64,000 nt of DNA. It comes from Eledone cirrhosa. Its lineage: Eukaryota. Location: positions 169,942,001 to 170,006,000 of the forward strand of contig OZ024743.1 in the NCBI GenBank assembly GCA_964016885.1, in the 5' to 3' direction. Both the position numbers and the translations under genes were made by a program. The notes below the pieces were generated by a model, which was given only the letters and a program-made list of their open reading frames with translations, was not told where the DNA came from and ran no database searches. Positions 2,315-57,742 of the stretch are shown piece after piece. The stretch's first letter is position 1. Each line of letters opens with the position of its first letter.

Positions 2315-4345
2315 GTGCGACGCACGAAGCTACAGGCACATTTCGGCCGAACGCCACCGGCTCCGGACGCCCCAGACCCGTTTCTCGCCCTGGGCCGACG
2401 ACCATCTTCTTGGACGCCGGCCCCAGGGCAATTTAGCACCCTGGACGAGTTCGTCGATGCCAGCCGTAGCACAGTAAATCGTTTCGACTTCCGCCACCGT
2501 TCCAAACAGTATAATATCTCACGGGGCGAACTCCTCGCTCTCCTCTCCCTCCGTAGCCGAGATGACATCGTCATCAAACCGGCGGACAAGGGAGGTGCCG
2601 TGGTGGTGTGGCGCGCGGACCTCTACACGGCCGAAGCCCTCAGGCAGCTCTGTAACCCCCTCTTCTACCGCCCTCTACCCTCTGATCCCACCCCCCTCTA
2701 CCAACAACAAGTCTCCTCCACCATCCAAGACCTTATCGCCCCCCCCCCCCGCTTCCCACCTCATCGTCCGCACCCCCACCATCTACTTCCTCCCCAAACT
2801 CCACAAACCCGACAACCCCGGTCGCCCCATCGTCTCCGCTTGCAACTGCCCCACCGAACTCATCTCCGCCTATCTCGACTCCCTCCTTGCCCCCCTTGTC
2901 ACCACCCTCCCCTCCCACATCTCCGACACCAACCACGCCCTGCGCCTTTTCGACTCCTTCACCTACCCACCCGGCCCACAGCCCTTCCTCTTCACCCTAG
3001 ACATCAAGTCCCTCTATACCGTCATCCCCCACGCCGACGGCCTACGCGCCCTCAAACACTACCTCGACCTTCGCCCCTCCCCCATTCCCTACACCCCCAC
3101 CCTCCTTCGCCTCGCCGAGCTGGTCCTCACCCTCAATCGTTTCTCCTTCTCGGGTGAGTTTTACCAACAGGTCACGGGGGTAGCCATGGGTACAAGAATG
3201 GGCCCGAACTATGCAAACCTTTTCGTTGGCCATGTTGAAGCCCAAATCTTTGCCCAGTACACCTGCCCCACGCCCGAACTGTACGGTCGTTACATTGACG
3301 ACTGTATCGGAGCCACGACCCTCACCCGAGAACAGCTCGACTCCTTTCTCTCCTTCTTCTGCTCCTTCCACCCCTCCCTCCACTTCAGCACCTCTATCTC
3401 CACCACCCACGTCCACTTCTTAGACATCTCCGTCGCCTTCGACCCCTCCCACCACTCCCTCGTCACCTCCGCCTTCTTCAAACCCACCGACTCCCACTCT
3501 TACCTCGACTTCACCTCTTCCCACCCCACCCACACTAAACACTCCATTCCCTACTCCCAACTCCTCAGGATCCGCCGCCTCTGTAGCCGAGATACTGACT
3601 TCGAGTCCCAGGCCCTTTCCCTAGTCAGCCATTTCATCCGCAGAGGTTACCCCCCTCTCTCGTCCACACCGCTCTCACCCGCGCCCGTGCTGTCCACCGC
3701 TCCACCACCCTCACCCCACGTCACCGCACACCCACCCACCGACTCCCCTTCCCCATCACCTACCACATCTCCACCTTACCTCTCCACTGCACCATCCGCC
3801 GCCTCTTCCGACGCCTCCAGTCCGACCCCTCCACCTCCCACATCTTCCCAACCCCACCACTCCCCTCCTTCAAACGCGCACGCAATCTCCGCACCCTCCT
3901 CGTCCACAGCTCCCTACCCCCCAAACCACGCTCTTTCCTCTACCCCGATTCCTTTCCCTGTTCTAGGCCCCGCTGCAACACCTGTCCCCACATCACCAAC
4001 ACCACCACCTTCCAGGGTCCCAACGGCCACTCTCTCTCTGTCCGGCATGCTTTCCGCTGCACCTCCTCCAACCTAGTCTACGGACTTCGTCGGACTTATG
4101 TCGGACAGACGGGACGTCGCCTGGCGGACCGATTCACTGAGCACCTCCGGGATATTCGTCTCGGTGGTAGTTCCCCCATCGCCCGCCACTTTGGTGCCCC
4201 TGGACATTCCGCACGCCATCTCACAGTCTGTGGCCTACTCCAATGCCACGGAACACCCGCCAATCTCCTTAGAGTCGAACAAAGAACCATCTTCATCTTA
4301 CAGACCCACACTCCCCCCGGCCTAAACTCCCCACCCTTATTCCTT
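2315..4345 (+). pseudogene. Disrupted PLE RT-GIY-YIG ORF
   Basis: Motifs are split between ORFs 2315..3157, 2562..4076 and a third segment. Confidence 0.85.
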
Positions 4346-22258: not shown

Positions 22259-22261
<3 letters not shown>

Positions 22262-22552
22262 AAAAAGTATGACCCCGACGGCAGAGCTCAAGCCGTTTCG
22301 GCGGCTATTTCTGGACTATGTCCAGAAATAGCCGTCAATACGGCTTGAGCTCTGTGGTCGGGGTCATACTTTTTCCTATTTCCCACTCTATTACCCTAAG
22401 CATTGAGTACTCTGGTGCCTTATGGTCCATCTGGTTCCTTACCACAATTCCTTTGTTATATATATATTGTGTTTCCTTATTTCGAAGATTGTGTTTCGTT
22501 ATTTCGTGGGCCGAGGTTCCGATTCTCGATAATTTATTTGTATATATATATA

Positions 22553-22603
<51 letters not shown>

Positions 22604-23589
22604 ATAATAATCAATTTGAAGACTAAAATCCAAAGAGGGCTCGATAAGGATAAATATATATCAAATATATAAGAACCGTAGAGCAAATATTTATTAAAAT
22701 AACAGATTAAGTATATGTTTTGTTTATTCCTTTACTTATTTGCATAGGTAAGTATATATTACCCGTATTTTTTGTGAAGGTACGTATACCTTCTCGTACG
22801 TATATTTGATTGTTATGGCGTATAATTTTATATTCCTGGTACATAGGGTTTGGCTATGTGTATACGGGAGTTTTGCGTCTGTGTGAGTATGCAGGTTCGT
22901 ACGTATGGTGGGTGTGTGTATATGTGTACTTCTTGTTTTAGTTGACTTACGTCTCCGAACATTCGTGTATTTATATGTAGGTATGTGTGTGCGCTTGTTA
23001 TATACGTATTTATTTATTCTTATACGTTTATATAATTATTTATTTATTTGTATACACGCATACACACACACACATATTTATATGTGCGTGGTTTTGTATA
23101 CCTATGGTAAGGTTTTGCGTATGCTTGTGTATGTACGTATTTGTTTGCGTGTATGTATTTATTTATTTCTATTACTTCTGTATTGTATTTATTTACTTTG
23201 TTCTTAACTCTGTAGCGGAGATTCATTTGGTCTCCTAGTTAGAACTTTAGTCTACGACTTCTGCTATACCATTTACGTGGTTTTGTCTTGGCGTGCTATT
23301 GTTCTCCACGCTCCACATATGACGTATTATCTTTGTTTTTTCGTTCATTGCCAGAGAACGTCTCTATGCACCACCTAAGAGAACATTAGTCTACGACCTC
23401 TTTTATACCATAAACGTGGTTCTGTCTTTGCGCGTAATTGTTTTTCACCGCTCCTATTAATGACGTATTCGTGTTTTCCCGTTCTTTGCCAGCGAACGTT
23501 TCCACGAACCAAAGTATCGTCTTCCTGTCTTCCTCCGGTTGCAACGTTTTCTGAAATATCCAGTTCTGCGTTTACAGATTGACTTTGTT

Positions 23590-23640
23590 AGTTTCAGAAG
23601 ATCCCGTTAAGGGTGAAAGCAGCGATTATTTGCTTAAACT
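23590..23640 (+). ncRNA. HHR with variant core CAGAAGA (5' pLTR)
   Basis: AGUUU CAGAAGA U CCC-GUUAA-GGG U GAAA GCAG..UUGC UU AAACU. Confidence 0.65.
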
Positions 23641-23794
23641 TTAATCTGCTATTTTAATAAATATTTGCTCTACGGTTCTTATATATTTGATATATATTTA
23701 TCTTTATCGAGCCCTCTTTGGATTTTAGTCTTCAAATTGATTATTATTACTATTTGGCTCCCTCGGTTGAGCATTCGACTGACTTATATTCATC

Positions 23795-25924
23795 GTGCAG
23801 AAACAACATCTGAATATTTCTACAAAGAACATACCCGTACCAAGCAGGAAAACATACCTAAAACTCCTGATACAGAAAACAGACGCGTTCATTAAAAGGT
23901 TGCGTTGGCGTGCCTTTTATTTCGATAATCCGCCAAAAGCAGACAACAAACAGGATAAATTTGGATTTAAAACCTATAATAACCCCCCGTGGAACCCAGC
24001 ATTGCTAGCCTTCGAAAATGATGTCTTGGAACTCATTCTGAGTATCACATTTCGGAATAAGAGCAATTCCTTCCAGCAAGACCTGAAGAATAGAATTCGT
24101 TCTATTAAGGATTCTAACGCCGTGCACGTCCATTCCGACAAGACTGGCAACCTATATCAAGTGGAGCGCAGTACTTACCATCAACTACTACATAATGCTG
24201 TAACTAAGGATTACCGTAAAACTAATCGGTGCGTCATCAATCAAATCAACGATGCTGGGTTTAAAATCACATCTAATCTCAACATCCTGGACCGGACCGA
24301 ACCTCTGGACCCTATTTCTCCCCACTTTACCCTGAAGGATCACAAATCCAATTTTCCGAACAACCCCTCTATTTGGCTTATTAACCCTATGAAGTCCGAT
24401 TTAGGTATACTTAGTAAAACGATTCTTGATAGAATTATACCTGAAATTAGAAGTTTGGCCCCTCTTGCACTGTGGAACAATTCTTTCGCGGTGATTGATT
24501 GGTTCAACGGCATATGTAACAAGGAACATTGCCGTTTTATCCAATTCGACATCAACAATTACTACTCCTCCATCACTTTACCAGTTTTCCTTAGAGCTAT
24601 CAATTTCGCTAAAACACTCACAGTGGTTAAGGATTTCGAAGTTGATGTCATCCTCAATGCCCGAAAGTCGGTGATTAATTTCGATGACTCTATTTGGATT
24701 AAAAAATCCAATAGTACCCCATTCGACGTGAGTATGGGCGCCAGTGACTCTGCGGAGGTTACTGATCTTATTGGCCTTTTCCTTCTTTTCTCTATCAAGG
24801 ACGAATTCCCCAACGCGGGCGGTGGTTTGTACCGTGACGATGGTCTTTTGACCATGACTAAGTGCGGACCTCGTGCTTGCGACAGGTTCAGAAAAGAACT
24901 CACAGCCTTCTTTAAAGGCTTCAACCTCTCTATACAGGTTGAGGCCAATCTCTCGGTCGTTAATTACCTCGACGTTACCCTCAATTTATTGAATGGGTTG
25001 TATTACCCGTATAGAAAGCCGAATGATACGCTTAATTACATAAGTAAGCATTCAAACCATCCTGCCAGCATAACCAAGAACCTGGTAAGAAACGTTTCGT
25101 TGAGGCTTTCCCGTCTTTCCACCAACGAGCGTATTTTCAACGACCATTCCACTTATTACAATGAAGCTCTTGCTCGAAGTGGATTTGTCGATAAGGTAGC
25201 ATATACAGAGTAGGAAAATAGACCTAGAAGAAATAGATCCCGTCGCATTTGTTGGTATAACCCACCATATAATATGGAGGTGGCCACACCATTAGCTAAG
25301 ATCTTTCTTTCCCTTATTACGAAGCATTTTCCCCCTACACATAAATATAGTAACATTTTTAATAGAAATACTATTAAAATTTCTTACTCTACGACTCCTA
25401 ACCTTGCACATAACATCACAGCTTCAAATTTAGCTAAACTACCTAGCCGTAGGAACACGTGCAACCCTGTAGTTAGTACTAACTGTAATTGTAGGAATCG
25501 GGCTGATTGCCCCCTATCCGGGAAATGCCTCTCTAGTAACATTGTCTACAAATGTAAGGTCGTAACACCCACGTCCCATAGGGCCTACATAGGGTTAACC
25601 GCCAATAGTTTCAAGCAGCGTCTTTACATGCATACCCATTCTTTTCGTTACCCTCTAAGAAGGAATATGACGTCACTTTCAGCTTATATCTGGAGTCTAA
25701 AAGACAACCACACCCAATATAAGTTACACTGGGAGATCCTAGCTAGGGCTAGATCGTATAACGGAAATAAAAGACCATGTGACCTCTGCGCCGCTGAGGC
25801 CCTGGAAATACTCTACGCCACAGACCACATCTTAAACAAAAAATCTGAGGCAATTTCGGCTTGTAAACATAAATTGCACAAAACTTTCCTGTATTACAGC
25901 CCCACGTTATATCCTAACGGATAG
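23795..25924 (+). pseudogene. PLE RT + GIY-YIG polyprotein (~709 codons) with one in-frame TAG at 25211-25213
   Basis: SDKTGNLY; TLKDHK; QFDINNYY; FDVSMGASDSAEV; GLYRDDGL; CNCRNRADCPL (CxCx5C); NIVY..YIGLTANSFKQR; ORFs 23795 and 25274 share a frame. Confidence 0.9.
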
Positions 25925-26845
25925 TACGATATATACGTGGATAATTTACGTCTTGATGTGGGAGCTAAGTATATGTTTTGTTTATTCCTTTACTTATTTG
26001 CATAGGTAAGTATATATTACCCGTATGTTTTGTGAAGGTACGTATACCTTCTCGTACGTATATTTGATTGTTATGGCGTATAATTTTATATTCCTGGTAC
26101 ATAGGGTTTGGCTATGTGTATACGGGAGTTTTGCGTCTGTGTGAGTATGCAGGTTCGTACGTATGGTGGGTGTGTGTATATGTGTACTTCTTGTTTTAGT
26201 TGACTTACGTCTCCGAACATTCGTGTATTTATATGTAGGTATGTGTGTGCGCTTGTTATATACGTATTTATTTATTCTTATACGTTTATATAATTATTTA
26301 TTTATTTGTATACACGCATACACACACACACATTTATATGTGCGTGGTTTTGTATACCTATGGTAAGGTTTTGCGTATGCTTGTGTATGTACGTATTTGT
26401 TTGCGTGTATGTATTTATTTATTTCTATTATTTCTGTATTGTATTTATTTACTTTGTTCTTAACTCTGTAGCGGAGATTCATTTGGTCTCCTAGTTAGAA
26501 CTTTAGTCTACGACTTCTGCTATACCATTTACGTGGTTTTGTCTTGGCGTGCTATTGTTCTCCACGCTCCACATATGACGTATTATCTTCGTTTTTTCGT
26601 TCATTGCCAGAGAACGTCTCTATGCACCACCTAAGAGAACATTAGTCTACGACCTCTTTTATACCATAAACGTGGTTCTGTCTTTGCGCGTAATTGTTTT
26701 TCACCGCTCCTATTAATGACGTATTCGTGTTTTCCCGTTCTTTGCCAGCGAACGTTTCCACGAACCAAAGTATCATCTTCCTGTCTTCCTCCGGTTGCAA
26801 CGTTTTCTGAAATATCCAGTTCTGCGTTTACAGATTGACTTTGTT

Positions 26846-26896
26846 AGTTTCAGAAGATCCCGTTAAGGGTGAAAGCAGCGATTCTTTGCTTAAACT
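26846..26896 (+). ncRNA. HHR with variant core CAGAAGA (3' pLTR)
   Basis: Same motif as 23590-23640. Confidence 0.65.
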
Positions 26897-27094
26897 TTAA
26901 CCTGTTATTTTAATAAATATATATATATATATTAGAATTGGAGCTCTGAAATAGCAATATATATATGGATGTATATATATAATGTATTTTGCAATACACT
27001 TTATGCTTAATTAAAAGCATTTTGAAGACCGTAAGCTATTGTTTTAAAGTAGTGACAAATTCACTTACTTTGATCTCAGCAAACAGGGGAGATA

Positions 27095-27138
27095 AGCCGA
27101 CAAGTCTTGTTTCGCTTTGGTTGAAGCTTATCAAGGCT
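27095..27138 (-). ncRNA. HHR, U3-A8 variant (unit 1)
   Basis: AGCC UUGAUAA GCUU-CAACCA-AAGC GAAA CAA-GAC-UUG UC GGCU. Confidence 0.85.
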
Positions 27139-27412
27139 AACTACCCCTCCTGTCTACCGAGATCACTGATGTTATATTCTTATAGAAATCTAGTAAATAA
27201 TCAGGAGCTGATTATGCAGAGCGGTTGTTGGTCAGGCAGAAATTAAAAATTAGAATTGGAGCTCTGAAATAGCAATATATATATGGATGTATATATATAA
27301 TGTATTTTGCAATACACTTCATGCTTAATTAAAAGCATTTTGAAGACCGTAAGCTATTGTTTTAAAGTAGTGACAAATTCACTTACTTTGATTTCAGCAA
27401 ACAGGGGAGATA

Positions 27413-27456
27413 AGCCGACAAGTCTTGTTTCGCTTTGGTTGAAGCTTATCAAGCCT
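27413..27456 (-). ncRNA. HHR, U3-A8 variant (unit 2; one stem I mismatch)
   Basis: As unit 1, but GGCT reads GCCT at 27453-27456. Confidence 0.75.
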
Positions 27457-27728
27457 AACTACCCCTCCTGTCTACCGAGATCACTGATGTTATATTCTTT
27501 TAGAAATCTAGTAAATAATCAGGAGCTGATTATGCAGAGCGGTTGTTGGTCAGGCAGAAATAAAAAATTAGAATTGGAGTTCTGAAATAGCAATATATAT
27601 ATGGATGTATATATAATGTATTTTGCAATACACTTTATGCTTAATTAAAAGCATTTTGAAGACCGTAAGCTATTGTTTTAAAGTAGTGACAAATTCACTT
27701 ACTTTGATTTCAGCAAACAGGGGAGATA

Positions 27729-27772
27729 AGCCGACAAGTCTTGTTTCGCTTTGGTTGAAGCTTATCAAGGCT
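27729..27772 (-). ncRNA. HHR, U3-A8 variant (unit 3)
   Basis: Identical to the unit 1 motif. Confidence 0.85.
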
Positions 27773-28029
27773 AACTACCCCTCCTGTCTACCGAGATCAC
27801 TGATGTTATATTCTTTTAGAAATCTAGTAAATAATCAGGAGCTGATTATGCAGAGCGGTTGTTGGTCAGGCAGAAATTAAAAATTAGAATTGGAGCTCTG
27901 AAATAGCAATATATATATGGATGTATATATAATGTATTTTCAGAGCTCCAATTCTAATTTTTAATTTCTGCCTGACCAACAACCGCTCTGCATAATCAGC
28001 TCCTGATTATTTACTAGATTTATTAATAA

Positions 28030-40336: not shown

Positions 40337-40519
40337 TAAATATGGTTTTATAAATATAGTTTCCATTTATTAATATCATTGAGACCCTCCATCTCAACTC
40401 TACTTTTGAAAAGCAGAAGAACTGCGAAACCGGTAAAGGAATCAAATAAATATATATATATTTTTTAAAATAAGACTCCAGTTGCATTTTCTATTTCATC
40501 TTTTTTCCTTATATATATA

Positions 40520-49079: not shown

Positions 49080-49470
49080 CAAAAACAGGGAGGCAATACA
49101 AATATGAGTTTATTAGGTATATATATATATATATATTAGACAGTGAGGTATTTTTACAAAATGAAAAATAACCGAGGTGTCCTACACGAGTGAAAGTAAA
49201 AAGAAAAAAAGATGAAATCGAAAATGCAACTGTAGTTTTATTTTAAAAATAATATATATATTTATTTGGTTTCTTTACCAGTTTTGCAGTTCTTCTGCTT
49301 TTCAAGAGTAGTGTTAAGATGGAGGGTCTGTGCTTTTTCACAGACCCTACATCTAACTCTACTTTTGAAAAGCAGAAGAACTGCGAAATCGGTAAAGGAA
49401 CCAAATAAATATATATATTTTTTTAAAAATAAGACTCCAGTTGCATTTTCGATTTCATCTTTTTTTCTTA

Positions 49471-50006: not shown

Positions 50007-51915
50007 TCATCATCATCATCATTTTATGTCCGCTTTTCCCTGCTTGCAAGGGTGGGACATGTCTTATTCAGAACAGCTTCTCTCGACTTGTCACAGTAAC
50101 TCGTCATCTCCACCGTGAGCTTCAGCGATCTGAGGTCTGTTCTCACCACCTCCGCCCATGTTTTTCGTGGTCTACCTCTACGACGTCTTCCTTCAGCTGG
50201 CATTTCCTGGCACTTCTTCACCCATCGGTCACCCTCCATGCGCATCACATGTCCGTACCACCTCAGTCTCCTCTCTTGCACACTACATTCTATCCCTCTC
50301 AGACACAGTTTCTCTCTCAACACATCCATGCTGGTTCGTTCACGCACATTGACATTGCACATCCAACAGAGCATGCTTGCCTCATTTCTTTCCAGCCATC
50401 GCATATCCTCTGCATTTGTTGCCCATGTCTCACTACCATGCAACATCGCGCTCCTCACACAGGCATCATATAACCGGCCTTTCGTACGCAGGGAGAAGCC
50501 CGTTCTTCGTCAGCAGAGGTAGCAGCTCCCTAAACTTCTTCCAACCCGTCCTTATTCTAGATACTATGGCCTCGGAACACCCCCCGCCCATGCTAATCTG
50601 ATCTCCTAGGTACCGGAAGCTATCCACCACTTCTATAGCACCCGCCTGCATTTGAAAAATGTGTCTATCAATGCGACTTCTACTGTCTAATTTCCCTGTA
50701 CATCTACTGCATACGTATTTCTCCCTACCTGTTAGTTTACCTGCTATTCCACTACATCTCTTGTGTACCCAGGATCTGTATTGTGTGCATTTTATAGAAT
50801 TTATGCCAGTTCCTTTTCTGCATATCGAACGTGGCCATTTCCCTGACGGAATCAAAGTGTTGTCCTCTTTTCTACTCATCAACACTTTTGTCTTAGCAAA
50901 AGTCCTCTTGCTTCCAGCTGCTGTTTCCATAGCCAGAATTTATTCTCTAGCTCCTCTACTGATTCTGCTATAAGAACCAGATCGTCAGCATAGAGAAGTT
51001 CCCATGGACAGCCAGTCTTAAACTCCTCTATTATGGCTTGGAGGACTATAATCAACAAGAGCGGGCCGAGGACCGAACCTTGATGTACTCCTACTTTTAT
51101 CGGGAATTCCTCATTCAACTCCATTCCTACCCTGACTTTACTGACAGCACCTCTGTACAAAGTTTGCACTGTCCTTACAAGCCATTCCTCAACACCTAGT
51201 TTCCTTAGGGACCACCAGATGACAGATCGGGGTACCCTATCAAAGGCCTTCTCGAGGTCAACAAAGGCTAAGTATAGTGGCTTATTCTTCTCTAAGAACC
51301 TCTCTTGTAATTGTCTCACCAAGAATAAGGCATCTGTTGTACTTTTCCCAGGCACAAAACCAAACTGCACCTCATATAGTTTGACCCTTTCTCTAATCAG
51401 TTGCGCTAATATTCTCTCTGCCACTTTCATAACCTGATCCATCAGCTTTATGCCCCTCAATTGCTCGGCTCTAGAGCATCCACTTTACCTTTGTAGCAAT
51501 TTATGAGAATACTGCTGCACCAGTCTTTGGGTATAACACCACCATATATAGCTTGATTGATGATGCGTGCAACCAATTTAGTGCCTACGTCCCCTGATGC
51601 CTTCAACATCTCAGCAACTATCCACAACGGTCCAGCAACCTTACCATTCTTCATTTCCTTAATTGCCTCTTGTACCCTATATTCGACAATCTCAATAGCT
51701 GGTCCCTCTGTCGGGTCTACTGAGGGTAATTTCTCTCTCTCCCATTTGTTCTCCACATTCATCAGTCTCTCATAATGACATTTCCAGGCCTCCTTTTTCT
51801 GATCATTCGTGACACTAAGTACACCGGCATCATCCCGGACACATTTATCTCCAACAACATCCTGATTTGCATTGACACACTGCCTTGCAATGTGGAACAT
51901 CGCACGCTTCTGATC
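50007..51915 (-). mobile_element. RTE LINE RT and C-terminus, frameshifted, with (GAT)n tail
   Basis: GVHQGSVLGPLL; LLYADD; Cys-rich insert ICRKGTGINSIKC..WVHKRCSG; RRLRWYGHV. Confidence 0.9.
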
Positions 51916-51919
51916 TTCA

Positions 51920-53605
51920 ACGATACTGACCATCACGTCGATTTCACCATCGAACACCCAGGAGAAGACGGGTCACTCGCCCTCCTCGACTTCCGTATCA
52001 ACATCTCGGAAGAAGGAGACATAAACACCACCTTCTACCGCAAAGCAGCGTGCAAGGACTTATTTGTGCATTATAACTCAGCCCTCCCCAACAACGCTAA
52101 GAGAGGCTATGTCCTAAATGAACTGACACGGATCACTAACAGATGCAGCGACCCGATGGGTGGTCTCACCCATACCACGCAATTCCGTAATCTACTCAGA
52201 TCTAATGGTTATCCCAAGCGACTGATTAACGGAATTAGAGACCCCAGACCCAATAGACAGACACCCACTAGAAAATTAAATAATAGCAGCTGCTTCTTTA
52301 AAATCCCCCACCTGAGTGAATATACCACGAACGCCATCCGCAGGGCCATACGGACGGAGGGACTTGACATACATTTGGCCCACACAGGACCTTCGCTGCG
52401 AAGATGCCTCTCCAACAAACCCGACGAGTCAGATGGGACGTGTTCCCTCAGCAACTGCCCGATACGGGGGGCAGATTGCCTACGCACCTATGTCGTATAT
52501 AAGATTCAATGCGATAAATGTAACAAGTTTTACATAGGTAGCACCATCCGACCCCTACATGTTCGTATCACGGAACATATCAACACCAACGCATCTTCCT
52601 TCCGTAAACACATCCTTAAATGCGGAAACCCACAGGGTAGACCCTTGGTCACAGTCCTAGCGACTGAACCCAGCATCGGATCCTTAAGGATAAAGGAAGC
52701 ACTTGTTATTAAGAACCTCAGACCCCCACTTAACAACCGGGCTGAGAGAAATGAGCTGACATGGCTAACTTAACCATAGTGACCATTCACAGCCTACGGC
52801 CTGCTATCTTCACACACACGCACGTATATGCATACCCATACGCATACACACACACCTATATTTATACACGCACACATGTTTTTACAACCTACCACCTTTC
52901 ACACCCTTTGATTTCCAGCTTCTACAGCCCACTATCTTTCACACACAAACGCACTCACACACATACACACACAGTTACACACACATGTATACCCATACGC
53001 TTACACACACATATCTATATTTATACACGCACACATGTTTTACAACCTACCACCTTTCACACCCTTTGATTTCCAGCTTCTACAGCCCACTATCTTTCAC
53101 ACACACACACACTCACACATATACACACTTACACTTATACACACACAGTTACACACACATATATATTTACACACACATATCTTACGGCTTTCACACGCTA
53201 GCGCACCCTCTTGATTTAACCCATTTGGTCAGTAGCTTTTGCCACAGCCTATCACGCGCACGCGCATTCTTTCCCTCGTTTAAATTTTAAATAATTTTCT
53301 CCCCATAACGGCATTCCTGTCTTAACGACATCACAACTTTCTCCGCTTGGCCTGTTCCCCCCCCCCCCCTTTTGGAACTTTCCCCCGTTGATGGGCGTGA
53401 GCCCGAACTATTGGGATTAAATCTCTACTACGGTAACCTTTGTTTTGTTTTCATCTTTGTCTCTCTCAATTTTCACTTTCACCTGTTTTTTTTCCTATCT
53501 ATCTTTCACTTCCTACCTCGAGATTTCCCTCTGCATTGTTGTGGCTTTCTTAAATACGTATTTTACACATTTCACAATGCTTCAAGCAAACTTTAACACC
53601 CTCTT
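51920..53605 (+). mobile_element. 5'-truncated PLE of a fourth family (possibly Nematis-like)
   Basis: FTIEHP..LALLDFRI..FYRK; CSLSNCPI..CLRTYVVYKIQCDKCNKFYIGSTIRPLHVRITEH; decayed HHR at 53382-53415. Confidence 0.85.
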
Positions 53606-54450: not shown

Positions 54451-54471
54451 TCATATATATATATATATATA

Positions 54472-54519
<48 letters not shown>

Positions 54520-54622
54520 TATATAATATATATATATAATATATATATATATATATAATATATATATATAATATATATATATAATATATATATATATAAT
54601 ATATATATAGGAACCAGTAGGA

Positions 54623-54714
54623 CCCCGACAGCTGAGCTCAAGCCGTTTCGACGGCTAATTCTGGACTAAATGAAAATTTATCCTGGTATTTAAATAGCCG
54701 ATCTTCTCAAGGGG
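54623..54714 (-). ncRNA. HHR, U3-A8 variant, in the PLE pLTR
   Basis: CCCC UUGAGAA GAUCGGCUA...UAGCCGUC GAAA CGGCU..AGCUG UC GGGG. Confidence 0.8.
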
Positions 54715-55809
54715 TAATTCCATATATGGTCAAAGTGATTGTCAAAAATCAGTAGTAATTCTGTGGTTGCAAATTAGTAGGGGAGATGGTGGCTAAACCT
54801 GCCAGTAGGAGAAAGAGGGGAGGGGGTGGAGTAGACCCAATCAAGCGTTGGTAGTGCCTGCTACAGCTGGGCATGAGGTCAAAGAAGATACAGGGGAGGG
54901 GGAGGGGGAGGAAGTCGGAACGGTAGGTAGAACAATGGGGGGTAGAAATATATAGAAAAGCAAATAAGTGTAAAGAAAAAAGTAAAGTAAATTAAATTCT
55001 ACGACCTAGGTGTCAGGCTATTGTTAGGCTAGAATAAAATAAAGAAAGAAAGAAAGAAGTAAATAAATAAATAAATAAATAAATAACGAAAAAAGTGAAA
55101 GAACTAGGTGGGACGGAATAGGCAAGGACCCTTTTAAGAGGTATAAGTACGTAAATGATACGGTGACGGGTCAACAAAAGGGGCCAAAATACTAAAGAGA
55201 CTACCACGAAATACACAATAAAGGTTTCCATCCCGGGCCAGCAACGACCCAGTGCAGCAAAGTGAACTTGTACGAGATAGTAATTCTGAGTCCCGAGAAA
55301 AATATATACTAATGCTAACTCTAAATGCTAAAAGATCTAAGACAAGCTACATGAAAGTTCGTACGAAATAAAGGTAGAAAACGGAGAAATAAATTCAGAA
55401 TCCACCCCGCCCAGAAGAAAAGCGAAGCAAGAGATGCTGAAACGAAAAAATAAGGCATAAGTGCCACTAAGAAATATAGAGGGCACAGAGAATAGTGGGA
55501 GCGGTCGGAAAAAGGGGGCAAGTATCCGGGGTCTAAGCCAACTGCTATAAAGGGCGGAGTCCGCCAAATCTATCATAGACTAGGGGAGGGGGTGATGGGG
55601 GTACTAAGGCTACGTGGGGCCAAAGGGCAGCCTCGGGTGGGCGAGAAAAGACGCCGACAAAGGAGAAGAGCTGGGGTAGAAGGACAAAGGAGAGAGGGGG
55701 GAAGGAAATAAAGGAAGCGATAAAAGAATACAAAGAAGATCTTACGTCTTCCTTGGCAAGCAGGGGTTACCCATTGCAAAATCGGCAAGTGGGGTGTTAT
55801 AGCCCTAGT

Positions 55810-57627
55810 CTACCCCCCCGGGTCATTATGGGGTTTGAGGGCGAGGTAAGTCCTACGCAATCTATGTTTACATGCAGTAACCAGTTCATCTTTCTTGTTT
55901 AGGAGTTGGTCCGTCGAAAACAGCATTTGTAAAGTTTCCTCCGAGCATAAATTGCACGGACGGCGTCCTCCCGTGTAAGAATTGGCTCTGGACAGTAATC
56001 TCCAAGTGAGATCATAGGTGATGTTGTTGTCCTTGAGGTCCCATATGTGGCCCGAAAGTGTAGTGGCGTGACGCCGGGCCGGGTTTCGGAAGGTATGTCT
56101 ATGTTGGTATAGCCGGGTCTTGAAGTCACATGCGGTAAGTCCTATATAGGCTTTGTTGGAGGTATCCGTCCTCACGTTGCACTGGTAGATCACATTACGG
56201 TCTCTGCATCTATTGTCGAGTGGGCAAATAGATCTATCCGGGCAGTTACACCTCCTGGTCGGTTCTCCACTGCTATTTCGGTTATTTCTGCCATCGGGGT
56301 TGAGTTTTTTGTTGTTAGAGGAGACGATGTTTTGTGCGAAGTTTGGTGTAGTGCTGTAAGAGAGTTTGATGGTATTTTTGTTAATTATGTTGTGGTAGCG
56401 GTGTTGTAATGGGAAGTGTTTTTCAATGAGCCTAAAGAATAGTTTCCCGATGGGAGTAGTCACCTCTGCGTTGTGGGGAGGATTGAACCATGTTACATTG
56501 CGTGAGCGGCGGTGTCTCCTGTTGGTTCCGCTAATGGGAGCTGGACAGTAGGATATTTCCTCCCGGAAACCACTCCGCTTGAGGGCCTGGTTGTAATAAG
56601 GCGCATGTTCATCGAATATCCGCTCATTAGCTGACAAACGGGATATGCGGAGGGAGATGTTTTTGACCAGGTTGTTTGTGATGTTCCTAGGATGGTTTGA
56701 TCGGCGGTGGATGTAGTGCAGATTGTCATTAGGTTTCCTGTATGGGTAGTACAGGTCGTTTTCGAGGTCGAGGGTCACGTCCAGGAAGTTTACTCGGGTC
56801 AGGGACGTTTGTAGGGTTATTTTAAATCCCCAGTCGCGGAAGAATCTGATTAATTGTTTCCGGACCCGATCTGTACTACTGGGGTTGTACCCTTTAAGGG
56901 TAAGGAGCCCATCATCACGGTACAATCCACCACCGAATGCAGGAAACATATCAGTGAGTTTGGCTATTAGGAATAATCCTATAAGATCAGTGACCTCCGC
57001 CGAATCCGTGGCGCCCATGCTGACGTCGAAGGGTGAGTCGGGAGCTCTTTTTATCCATTTAGAGTCGTCAAAGAGTAAGACTGTCTTCCTGGCGTGGAGG
57101 ATGATTTTTCTTTCCTGGTCGGTGATGGGCACGAGTGTTTCGGCGAAGTCCAAGGCGGCAGTAAGTAGCGGTAAGGTGATTGAAGCATAGTAGCTCTCTA
57201 TGTCGAACTGTATGAATTTAGTTTCTCGTTTATCCTCCATATTGCTGAACCAGGAGATTACTTCCTGGGTGTTGATCCATAGGCTAAGTCGGGTGTGTTG
57301 CTTGACTTTTGGTATCACGCGGTCTAGGATTTTTTTGCTGATTCTCCCTATGTCGGACTTCGTTGGGTTAATAAGCCTGATAGAGGGTTTACGGTCAAAA
57401 TCGGATTTATGGTCCTTCAGTGTGAAGTATGGTGTCCGTGGGTCTAGAGGTTCCGTGCGGTCGGCGACCCCGAGGCTGGAGGTGATTTGTTGTCCATCTC
57501 GATTTATGTCCTCGATGCAAGAGTGGTTGGCCTTTTTATAGGTGGAGTTTAGGCTGCTCCTGATCAGTGTGTGGTATCTGTCAGGGTTGACAAAGTATAG
57601 GTTCCCAGTTTTATCCGAATGCACCAT
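55810..57627 (-). CDS. PLE reverse transcriptase + GIY-YIG endonuclease (605 aa, N-terminus missing)
   Basis: SDKTGNLY; QFDIESYY; FDVSMGATDSAEV; GLYRDDGL; CNCPDRSICPL; NVIY..YIGLTACDFKTRLYQH; CNLC. Confidence 0.88.
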   Translation of the reverse strand: MVHSDKTGNLYFVNPDRYHTLIRSSLNSTYKKANHSCIEDINRDGQQITSSLGVADRTEPLDPRTPYFTLKDHKSDFDRKPSIRLINPTKSDIGRISKKILDRVIPKVKQHTRLSLWINTQEVISWFSNMEDKRETKFIQFDIESYYASITLPLLTAALDFAETLVPITDQERKIILHARKTVLLFDDSKWIKRAPDSPFDVSMGATDSAEVTDLIGLFLIAKLTDMFPAFGGGLYRDDGLLTLKGYNPSSTDRVRKQLIRFFRDWGFKITLQTSLTRVNFLDVTLDLENDLYYPYRKPNDNLHYIHRRSNHPRNITNNLVKNISLRISRLSANERIFDEHAPYYNQALKRSGFREEISYCPAPISGTNRRHRRSRNVTWFNPPHNAEVTTPIGKLFFRLIEKHFPLQHRYHNIINKNTIKLSYSTTPNFAQNIVSSNNKKLNPDGRNNRNSSGEPTRRCNCPDRSICPLDNRCRDRNVIYQCNVRTDTSNKAYIGLTACDFKTRLYQHRHTFRNPARRHATTLSGHIWDLKDNNITYDLTWRLLSRANSYTGGRRPCNLCSEETLQMLFSTDQLLNKKDELVTACKHRLRRTYLALKPHNDPGG

Positions 57628-57742
57628 GATGTCATTTGTGTTATCATACTCTGTTAAGTTGCTACGGAGTTTTTGTAGGAATCGGTTGTGATATATATAT
57701 ATATATATACGTTATTCCGGGTTGAATCGGAGGTAACCACAG

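What the first reader, a model, noticed from the sequence alone, without database searches (positions are those of the whole stretch)
54623..54714. Autonomous PLE carries the same rare U3-A8 hammerhead core: candidate helper lineage
Seen: the pLTR of the PLE with an open 605-aa ORF folds as CCCC UUGAGAA [stem II with long insert] GAAA [stem III] GUC GGGG. Its stems share no obvious sequence with the 317-bp unit, yet both have the U3-A8 pair, a true stem III and GUC. Inference: either the retrozyme derives from or is mobilised by Hydra-like PLEs, or the covariant arose twice.
Basis: partly seen in the sequence, partly recalled or inferred. Interest (0 to 1): 0.75.

Follow-up and report, generated by a model that had tools for sequence, protein, structure and literature searches.

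The report
Recurrent swapped hammerhead, not helper tag
A young Penelope-type jumping gene ends in an RNA motif predicted to cut itself, with a U-A instead of the usual C-G core pair; that swap is already published and turns up in several unrelated jumping elements of this genome, so it does not show that this gene is the one that moves the nearby 318-base repeat.

Summary
The motif is real: a type I hammerhead fold with a U3-A8 core at 54714-54623 (minus strand), 17 nt from the (TA)n end of a Hydra-clade Penelope-like element (PLE); 36 of 37 family copies read keep it. This copy is 5'-truncated (the 605-aa ORF starts at an internal Met); intact 717-aa tandem copies lie elsewhere. The helper inference fails. 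U3-A8 is published for PLEs. In a 1.43-Mb sample of this genome it occurs in six families, including a Neptune-type PLE whose motif also lies in this window. The other Hydra families linked here carry C3-G8, and a protein tree rejects one U3-A8 clade. The 318-bp family itself mixes U3-A8 and C3-G8, shares no sequence with this PLE, ends at other distances from the cut site and lacks the strict hairpin found beside Hydra end sites. Best reading: a compensatory swap that arose repeatedly; the retrozyme has PLE-type insertion ends, but its helper is unidentified. Cleavage is untested. The scan noted this ribozyme type, the retrozymes and the hairpin before on other DNA of this genome.

The parts
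54623..54714 (-). Type I hammerhead motif of Hydra family A: stem I CCCC/GGGG, core U3 U4 G5 A6 G7 A8 A9 (54710-54704), long stem II, GAAA, stem III, predicted cut after GUC at 54627
54610..54626 (-). 17 nt from the predicted cut site to the fixed proximal 3' end of the family; pairs back as an extension of stem I
54453..54609 (.). (TA)n target microsatellite
54715..55809 (-). 3' untranslated region / pLTR of family A (about 1.1 kb from the stop codon to the hammerhead)
55810..57690 (-). 5'-truncated RT + GIY-YIG ORF of a Hydra-clade PLE (aa about 92-717 of 717; DKT, CxCX5C linker, no CCHH)
26931..27940 (-). 3.2 tandem copies of the 318-bp retrozyme, each with a compact U3-A8 hammerhead (UUGAUAA); array ends in (TA)n about 166 nt after the cut site; inverted arm follows at 27941-28020
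22601..26920 (+). Hydra family B PLE (54% protein identity to A over 476 aa) with a C3-G8 hammerhead (CAGAAGA) in both pLTRs: counter-example inside the window
49361..49410 (+). U3-A8 hammerhead of the Neptune-type family X3 (further copies at 40402 + and 49309 -): a third U3-A8 family inside the window
22260..22460 (.). Tiny foldback insertion of sister family A2, broken inside hammerhead loop II

Best explanation
This is the end-repeat hammerhead motif of a young Hydra-clade Penelope-like retrotransposon, predicted to cut its own RNA after GUC, and its U3-A8 core pair is a compensatory swap that likely arose several times in this genome, so it does not identify this family as helper of the 318-bp retrozyme. 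Steps: (shown) the family exists as head-to-tail 3.53-kb units with an intact 717-aa RT-endonuclease ORF and near-identical dispersed copies; (shown) copies end in (TA)n at two fixed places, 17 and 97 nt after the cut site, one for each arm of inverted insertions, each 6-8 nt before an RCTC...GAGY hairpin; (inferred from the anole PLE in vitro work) the protein nicks TA repeats and starts reverse transcription internally at these two sites on a longer-than-unit RNA; (predicted, untested) the hammerhead cuts multimeric transcripts to unit length, with U3-A8 working as C3-G8 does. The retrozyme is likely copied by some PLE protein in the same way (fixed paired ends, (TA)n, inversions), but which family does it is open.
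For: Family fixation: 36 of 37 A copies UUGAGAA; sister A2 (ORF 84-91% identical) UUGACAA. Recurrence: in 137 x 10 kb evenly spaced stretches plus the window, 139 C3-G8 and 23 U3-A8 hits of score 12 or more against 0 and 1.5 in shuffles (7 of the 23 look spurious: a satellite and two AT-rich hits), plus 11 genuine lower-scoring U3-A8 hits; six families. X3's U3-A8 motif lies 1.0-1.4 kb behind an ORF with DKG, CX4CxxC linker and CCHH endonuclease, 23% identical to A. Hydra families B, L298/L306-type, L188 and L137 carry C3-G8; all 26 Hydra rows in Craig et al. File S2 read CUGANGA. Tree of 9 proteins: 2 changes needed, one U3-A8 clade rejected, p-AU 2.2e-46. Inside the 310-318-bp retrozyme family (63-82% identical to the window unit) the 3-8 pair is U-A in 7 loci and C-G in 3; on 8 aligned rows it is UA:5, CG:2, one gap, with 9 of 13 pairs changing on both sides. 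No homology 318-bp unit vs family A: best 24.7 bits against a shuffled 95th percentile of 25.6; z = 0.0. End positions differ: A +17/+97, 318-bp about +130-141/+166. U3-A8 in PLEs: PMC4209133; in nature and active in vitro: PMC3088659.
Against: Lack of homology does not exclude mobilisation in trans, and both elements are young and target (TA)n. The 318-bp family keeps a short GCT-ATTTCAG-AGC(A) hairpin right behind its proximal end that resembles the Hydra hairpin (a relaxed motif that admits it matches 15% of random TA sites). The published Hydra set was found with a C3-G8-based descriptor, so it could not have shown U3-A8. The sample is 0.05% of the genome and the tree has only 9 rows, no reference PLEs, and pieces joined across frameshifts; the L306 link is looser (432 nt). 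One gain plus reversions, or ribozyme exchange between families, would also give the pattern. No cleavage or RNA evidence was obtained.
Confidence: 0.8

Rival explanations
1. The 318-bp retrozyme is copied in trans by a Hydra-clade protein (family A or another), recognised through a shortened form of the Hydra start hairpin; the shared U3-A8 is incidental.
For: Both insert into (TA)n with paired fixed ends. GCT-ATTTCAG-AGC(A) is conserved in relatives down to 63% identity and lies 1-13 nt behind the proximal junction. Both families are active at the same time (98-100% identical copies). Two other retrozymes (592 bp, 525 bp) carry the strict Hydra hairpin at one of two ends each.
Against: The strict RYTC...GARY motif is absent at 6 of 6 candidate positions in the 318/310-bp units; the relaxed form has a 15% background; the distance between the paired ends is about 25-36 nt against 80-95 nt in Hydra families; the non-Hydra X3 and 58493 families also target (TA)n.
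Confidence: 0.3
2. One reading: the retrozyme descends from family A's pLTR or is specifically mobilised by family A, and U3-A8 is the inherited mark.
For: Shared U3-A8, G10.1-C11.1, GUC triplet and a real stem III; retrozymes derived from PLE pLTRs are reported in Xenopus (10.64898/2026.07.22.740005).
Against: No sequence homology; different hammerhead build (4-bp stem II with 6-nt loop against 8-9 bp with 37-nt insert); C3-G8 relatives inside the retrozyme family; U3-A8 also in a Neptune-type PLE.
Confidence: 0.07
3. The motif folds but is slow or silent in vivo; it is kept as a structural part of the pLTR (protein binding or priming), not as a nuclease.
For: In the anole PLE the hammerhead needed protein and was dispensable for insertion in vitro (PMC11167929). 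Only 2 of 59 family end-arms in the sample begin within 5 nt of the cut site, whereas 34 begin at -45 to -30. A competing hairpin that hides GAAA has probability 0.24. Hydra family B thrives with a U4-to-A core.
Against: All core positions are kept between A and A2 while N7, 10.2 and loop II vary; the compensated 3-8 pair argues for selection on catalysis; the active fold is the predicted ground state.
Confidence: 0.25

Closest known systems
Hydra clade of C-terminal EN+ PLEs (Craig et al. 2021, PMC8557442; section 11, passages, supplement parts 1-2 read)
   Same: DKT, RWR for RWK, CxCX5C linker, no CCHH, CxxC and CxH motifs, (TA)n target, hammerhead in the pLTR near the 3' end.
   Different: All 26 Hydra rows of File S2 are C3-G8 with short stem II; this one is U3-A8 with a 54-nt stem II region; the unit is 3.5 kb against under 3 kb.
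U3-A8 minimal hammerheads of Schistosoma mansoni Cercyon PLEs (Cervera and De la Pena 2014, PMC4209133; parts 1-2 of 4 read)
   Same: Same core covariation in a PLE pLTR, G10.1-C11.1, long helix II, palindromic loop 3; about 1,300 hits reported there.
   Different: Those lack a stable helix III; this motif has 6 bp and is predicted to fold as a monomer; other PLE family and host.
Animal non-LTR retrozymes (Cervera and de la Pena 2020, PMC7229834, passages; Li et al. 2026, 10.64898/2026.07.22.740005, parts 1-3 of 5)
   Same: The 318-bp unit is a tandem non-coding repeat with one type I hammerhead per unit; PLEs are the proposed helpers or parents.
   Different: No parent pLTR was found for this unit among the six PLE families compared; the family mixes U3-A8 and C3-G8.
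Poseidon PAc of the green anole (Frangieh et al. 2024, PMC11167929; passages)
   Same: Two internal start sites that give the uneven ends of inverted insertions; AT-rich target.
   Different: Other clade; the start sites here are inferred from genomic ends only and lie before an RCTC...GAGY hairpin.

Membership tests
Type I hammerhead ribozyme | Three helices around the core N3 U G A N N8 A ... GAAA ... UH with 3-8 pairing | tested here: met
Type I hammerhead ribozyme | Core conserved across diverged copies while stems and loops vary | tested here: met
   A, older A and A2 keep the core; N7, 10.2, loop II and a stem III G-U/G-C vary
Type I hammerhead ribozyme | Self-cleavage after N17 | not testable with these tools
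   needs an in vitro assay
Hydra-clade PLE | DKT in place of DKG; RWK-type motif | tested here: met
   SDKTGN, RLRWR (criteria)
Hydra-clade PLE | CxCX5C linker, C-terminal GIY-YIG without CCHH, CxxC and CxH motifs | tested here: met
   CNCPDRSIC, YIG, CNLC, CKH; Pfam gave no hit for this protein
Hydra-clade PLE | Insertion into (TA)n; tandem or inverted pLTR structure | tested here: met
Hydra-clade PLE | Placement with reference Hydra proteins in an RT tree | not tested
   the tree holds only families of this genome
Autonomous PLE copy (this window) | Complete ORF with upstream pLTR | tested here: not met
   5'-truncated at unit position 447; intact 717-aa ORFs in L091 and L093
Helper or parent of the 318-bp retrozyme | Sequence homology between pLTR and retrozyme unit | tested here: not met
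Helper or parent of the 318-bp retrozyme | Same 3' end signal (strict Hydra hairpin, end spacing) | tested here: inconclusive
   strict motif absent and spacing different; a relaxed look-alike is present with 15% background
Helper or parent of the 318-bp retrozyme | U3-A8 restricted to this PLE lineage and the retrozyme | tested here: not met
Neptune-type PLE (family X3) | DKG, CX2-5CxxC linker, CCHH endonuclease | tested here: met
   EADKG, CGRSNCGTC, C..C..H..H in L291; Neptune versus Nematis was not resolved

The most novel reading that the evidence does not exclude
Helper choice in this genome can be read from the RNA hairpin beside the two start sites, not from the ribozyme core: Hydra proteins start copying a few bases before an RCTC...GAGY hairpin, the 592-bp and 525-bp retrozymes borrow that signal, and the 318-bp retrozyme uses a shrunken form of it, while U3-A8 cores evolve again and again in parallel. 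This would give the first sequence-level code pairing animal retrozymes with their Penelope helpers.
Probability: 0.3. Interest if true: 0.6.

Novelty: new member of a known kind. Interest (0 to 1): 0.28.

Why it matters
As found, it adds a Hydra-clade and a Neptune-type example to a known ribozyme variant and warns against using the 3-8 pair as a lineage marker: descriptors fixed on CUGANGA miss about one in six hammerheads of this genome. What could matter more is the by-product: young intact Hydra elements, several young retrozymes and mapped paired end sites make the open question of which PLE moves which retrozyme testable in vitro.

Tried and rejected
Rfam scan: no hammerhead among the 150 of 266 rows shown, all AT-repeat noise. 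Pfam: no family for the Hydra proteins; the homolog search gave 2049 hits, the 120 listed at 38-54% identity and almost all unnamed. blastn, nhmmer and local alignment of five retrozyme units against six PLE non-coding regions: the only scores above shuffles are TA/TG-repeat stretches. A profile of the 318-bp family found only retrozyme-type copies in the loci held, no PLE pLTR. The 592-bp retrozyme's hammerhead resembles A2's by eye (core plus GTCGGC) but scores z = -0.4. An apparent link of the X3 motif to a 58493-type ORF in L215 was a nested insertion and was dropped; the true link is in L291-L294. Most of 12 loci of Hydra family E were interrupted behind the ORF; 2 gave a hammerhead. No RNA holder listed; three runs of unknown kind were laid and say nothing on expression. 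Lunse et al. 2016 (PMC5785218) is not held, so variants listed there were not seen. I did not build a covariance model; a descriptor scan of a 1.43-Mb sample stood in for it. Literature searches; the words octopus and cephalopod were my untested guess at the host. Supplements of the bioRxiv preprint and of PMC4209133 were not read and may list U3-A8 retrozymes.

Full report
Observation. The minus strand at 54714-54623 matches the description base for base: CCCC, UUGAGAA, a G-C-closed stem II with a long insert, GAAA, a 6-bp stem III capped by a palindromic loop, GUC, GGGG. The three-stem form is the minimum-energy fold, though its energy is ordinary against shuffles, z = -1.02; pair probabilities are 0.98 for stem I and mostly about 0.75 for stems II and III, with a competing GAAA-hiding hairpin at 0.24. 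Seventeen bases after the predicted cut the element ends in (TA)n.

The element. The ORF at 55810-57711 has DKT, a CxCX5C linker, a GIY-YIG domain without CCHH and the CxxC and CxH motifs that define the Hydra clade in Craig et al. 2021. The family is young: of 40 scored matches among 839 candidates, 14 are 100% identical, and head-to-tail arrays of period 3528-3537 hold intact 717-aa ORFs in L091 and L093. So the family is autonomous, this copy is not. U3-A8 is fixed: 36 of 37 copies read, and the sister family A2 has UUGACAA.

Is U3-A8 a Hydra mark? No. All 26 Hydra rows in the supplement of Craig et al. read CUGANGA, though their descriptor was built on that core. I scanned 137 evenly spaced 10-kb stretches plus the window with a descriptor free at positions 3 and 8: 139 C3-G8 and 23 U3-A8 hits at score 12 or more, against 0 and 1.5 in shuffles. 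Seven of the 23 are a satellite or AT-rich noise; 11 genuine U3-A8 hits score lower. They fall into six families: A, the 318-bp unit, a 592-bp tandem unit, X3, X4 and a single copy in L152. X3 proved to be the pLTR of a PLE with DKG, CX4CxxC linker and CCHH endonuclease, Neptune-type and 23% identical to A; three copies of its motif lie in this window. The other Hydra families that I could link to a hammerhead (B, L298, L306, L188, L137) carry C3-G8. A tree of nine proteins needs two changes of the label and rejects one U3-A8 clade, p-AU 2.2e-46; it is small, has no reference sequences and includes pieces joined across frameshifts.

The 318-bp unit. It is a young family too (1283 candidates, the best 40 at 98-99% or more); 70 of 70 unit reads have UUGAUAA, overlapping loci counted more than once. 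It has older relatives at 63-82% identity, and among them the 3-8 pair is U-A in seven loci and C-G in three, including a 310-bp tandem array. On eight aligned rows the pair is UA:5, CG:2, and 9 of 13 hammerhead pairs change on both sides (the structure was taken from one row, so the controls lean in its favour). The swap therefore happened inside the retrozyme lineage. Against family A the unit scores no better than shuffles.

Ends. Junctions with (TA)n cluster at two places per family, one for each arm of inverted insertions: A and sisters +17 (49 of 125) and +97 (71); B +25 and +116; X3 +76 (15 of 54) and +141 (38); 318-bp about +130-141 (13 of 33) and +166 (19) (loci partly chosen by search). 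This is the pattern explained by two internal start sites in the anole PLE and makes PLE mobilisation of the retrozyme likely, as proposed in PMC7229834 and the 2026 preprint. Following a lead from earlier notes, I found an RYTC...GARY hairpin 2-8 nt behind 12 of 12 end sites of Hydra or Hydra-like families (motif derived from them, so circular; two of the families were not linked to an ORF), at one of two ends in the 592-bp and in the 525-bp retrozyme, and at none of 6 candidate positions in the 318/310-bp units, nor in X3, the 58493 family or a 422-bp retrozyme; background 78 of 1560. The 318-bp family does keep GCT-ATTTCAG-AGC(A) behind its proximal end, but a motif loose enough to admit it matches 454 of 3018 random sites. 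A Hydra helper is thus neither shown nor excluded; nothing singles out family A.

Mechanism. Shown: structure, family fixation, paired ends, hairpins. Inferred: transcription through tandem units, nicking of (TA)n and internal priming at +17 and +97 by the 717-aa protein. Predicted: cleavage after GUC. U3-A8 ribozymes are active in vitro and occur in nature, and about 1,300 U3-A8 motifs were reported for Schistosoma PLEs. Against a major role in vivo: only 2 of 59 end-arms of A and sisters in the sample begin within 5 nt of the cut site, while 34 begin at -45 to -30, inside loop II (arms of one insertion are not independent); summed contig depth in one public run is six times higher over the last 105 bases than over the next bin. 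A transcript start or an RT stop in the long stem II would explain this; untested.

Verdict. Real motif, known variant, new member. The helper claim does not follow from the shared pair. I found no paper on U3-A8 in Hydra PLEs or in retrozymes in six searches, with Lunse et al. 2016 and some supplements unseen. Earlier notes of this scan reached similar readings on other DNA of this genome; they are leads, not support.

Noticed in passing
window 22260-22460; L261-L290; sample loci: Most end-fragments of families A, A2 and a third sister are tiny foldbacks that break 30-45 nt upstream of the cut site, inside hammerhead loop II (34 of 59 arms), so they lack the core. A transcript start or a reverse-transcription stop there is possible.
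   Followed up: partly
window 23594-23645 and 26850-26900 (+): Hydra family B has a family-fixed CAGAAGA core (U4 replaced by A) with a U-U pair at the base of stem II, in dozens of copies; activity unknown.
   Followed up: partly
L203:1089, L115, L142, L212: 592-bp tandem retrozyme with U3-A8, long stem II and ends at +77/+247; its distal hairpin resembles that of Hydra B, making it a better candidate passenger of Hydra PLEs than the 318-bp unit.
   Followed up: partly
L186, L161, L101: 525-bp tandem unit with C3-G8 and a compensated GTTC...GAAC form of the Hydra hairpin at +58.
   Followed up: partly
L193:1157 (+), L181 (-), L152 (-): Two more U3-A8 hammerhead families (X4 with a 9-bp stem III; a single copy in L152); parent elements not identified.
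   Followed up: no
window 53380-53420 (+): Hammerhead-like motif with UUGAUGG (U3, G8, G9) behind the PLE ORF 51730-52773; a second copy in L174 has GAAA intact.
   Followed up: no
window 421 (-), 48845 (+); L218: 422-bp tandem retrozyme-like family with C3-G8 and a loop 2 like that of the 310-318-bp family.
   Followed up: no
window 1757 (-), 20036 (-), 36495 (-), 38192 (+), 40287 (+), 60787 (+): At least six further C3-G8 hammerhead motifs of five families in the same 64 kb.
   Followed up: partly
window 26917-26931: The 318-bp array sits tail-to-tail in the (TA)n at the 3' end of Hydra B: nesting through the shared target, not evidence of kinship.
   Followed up: yes
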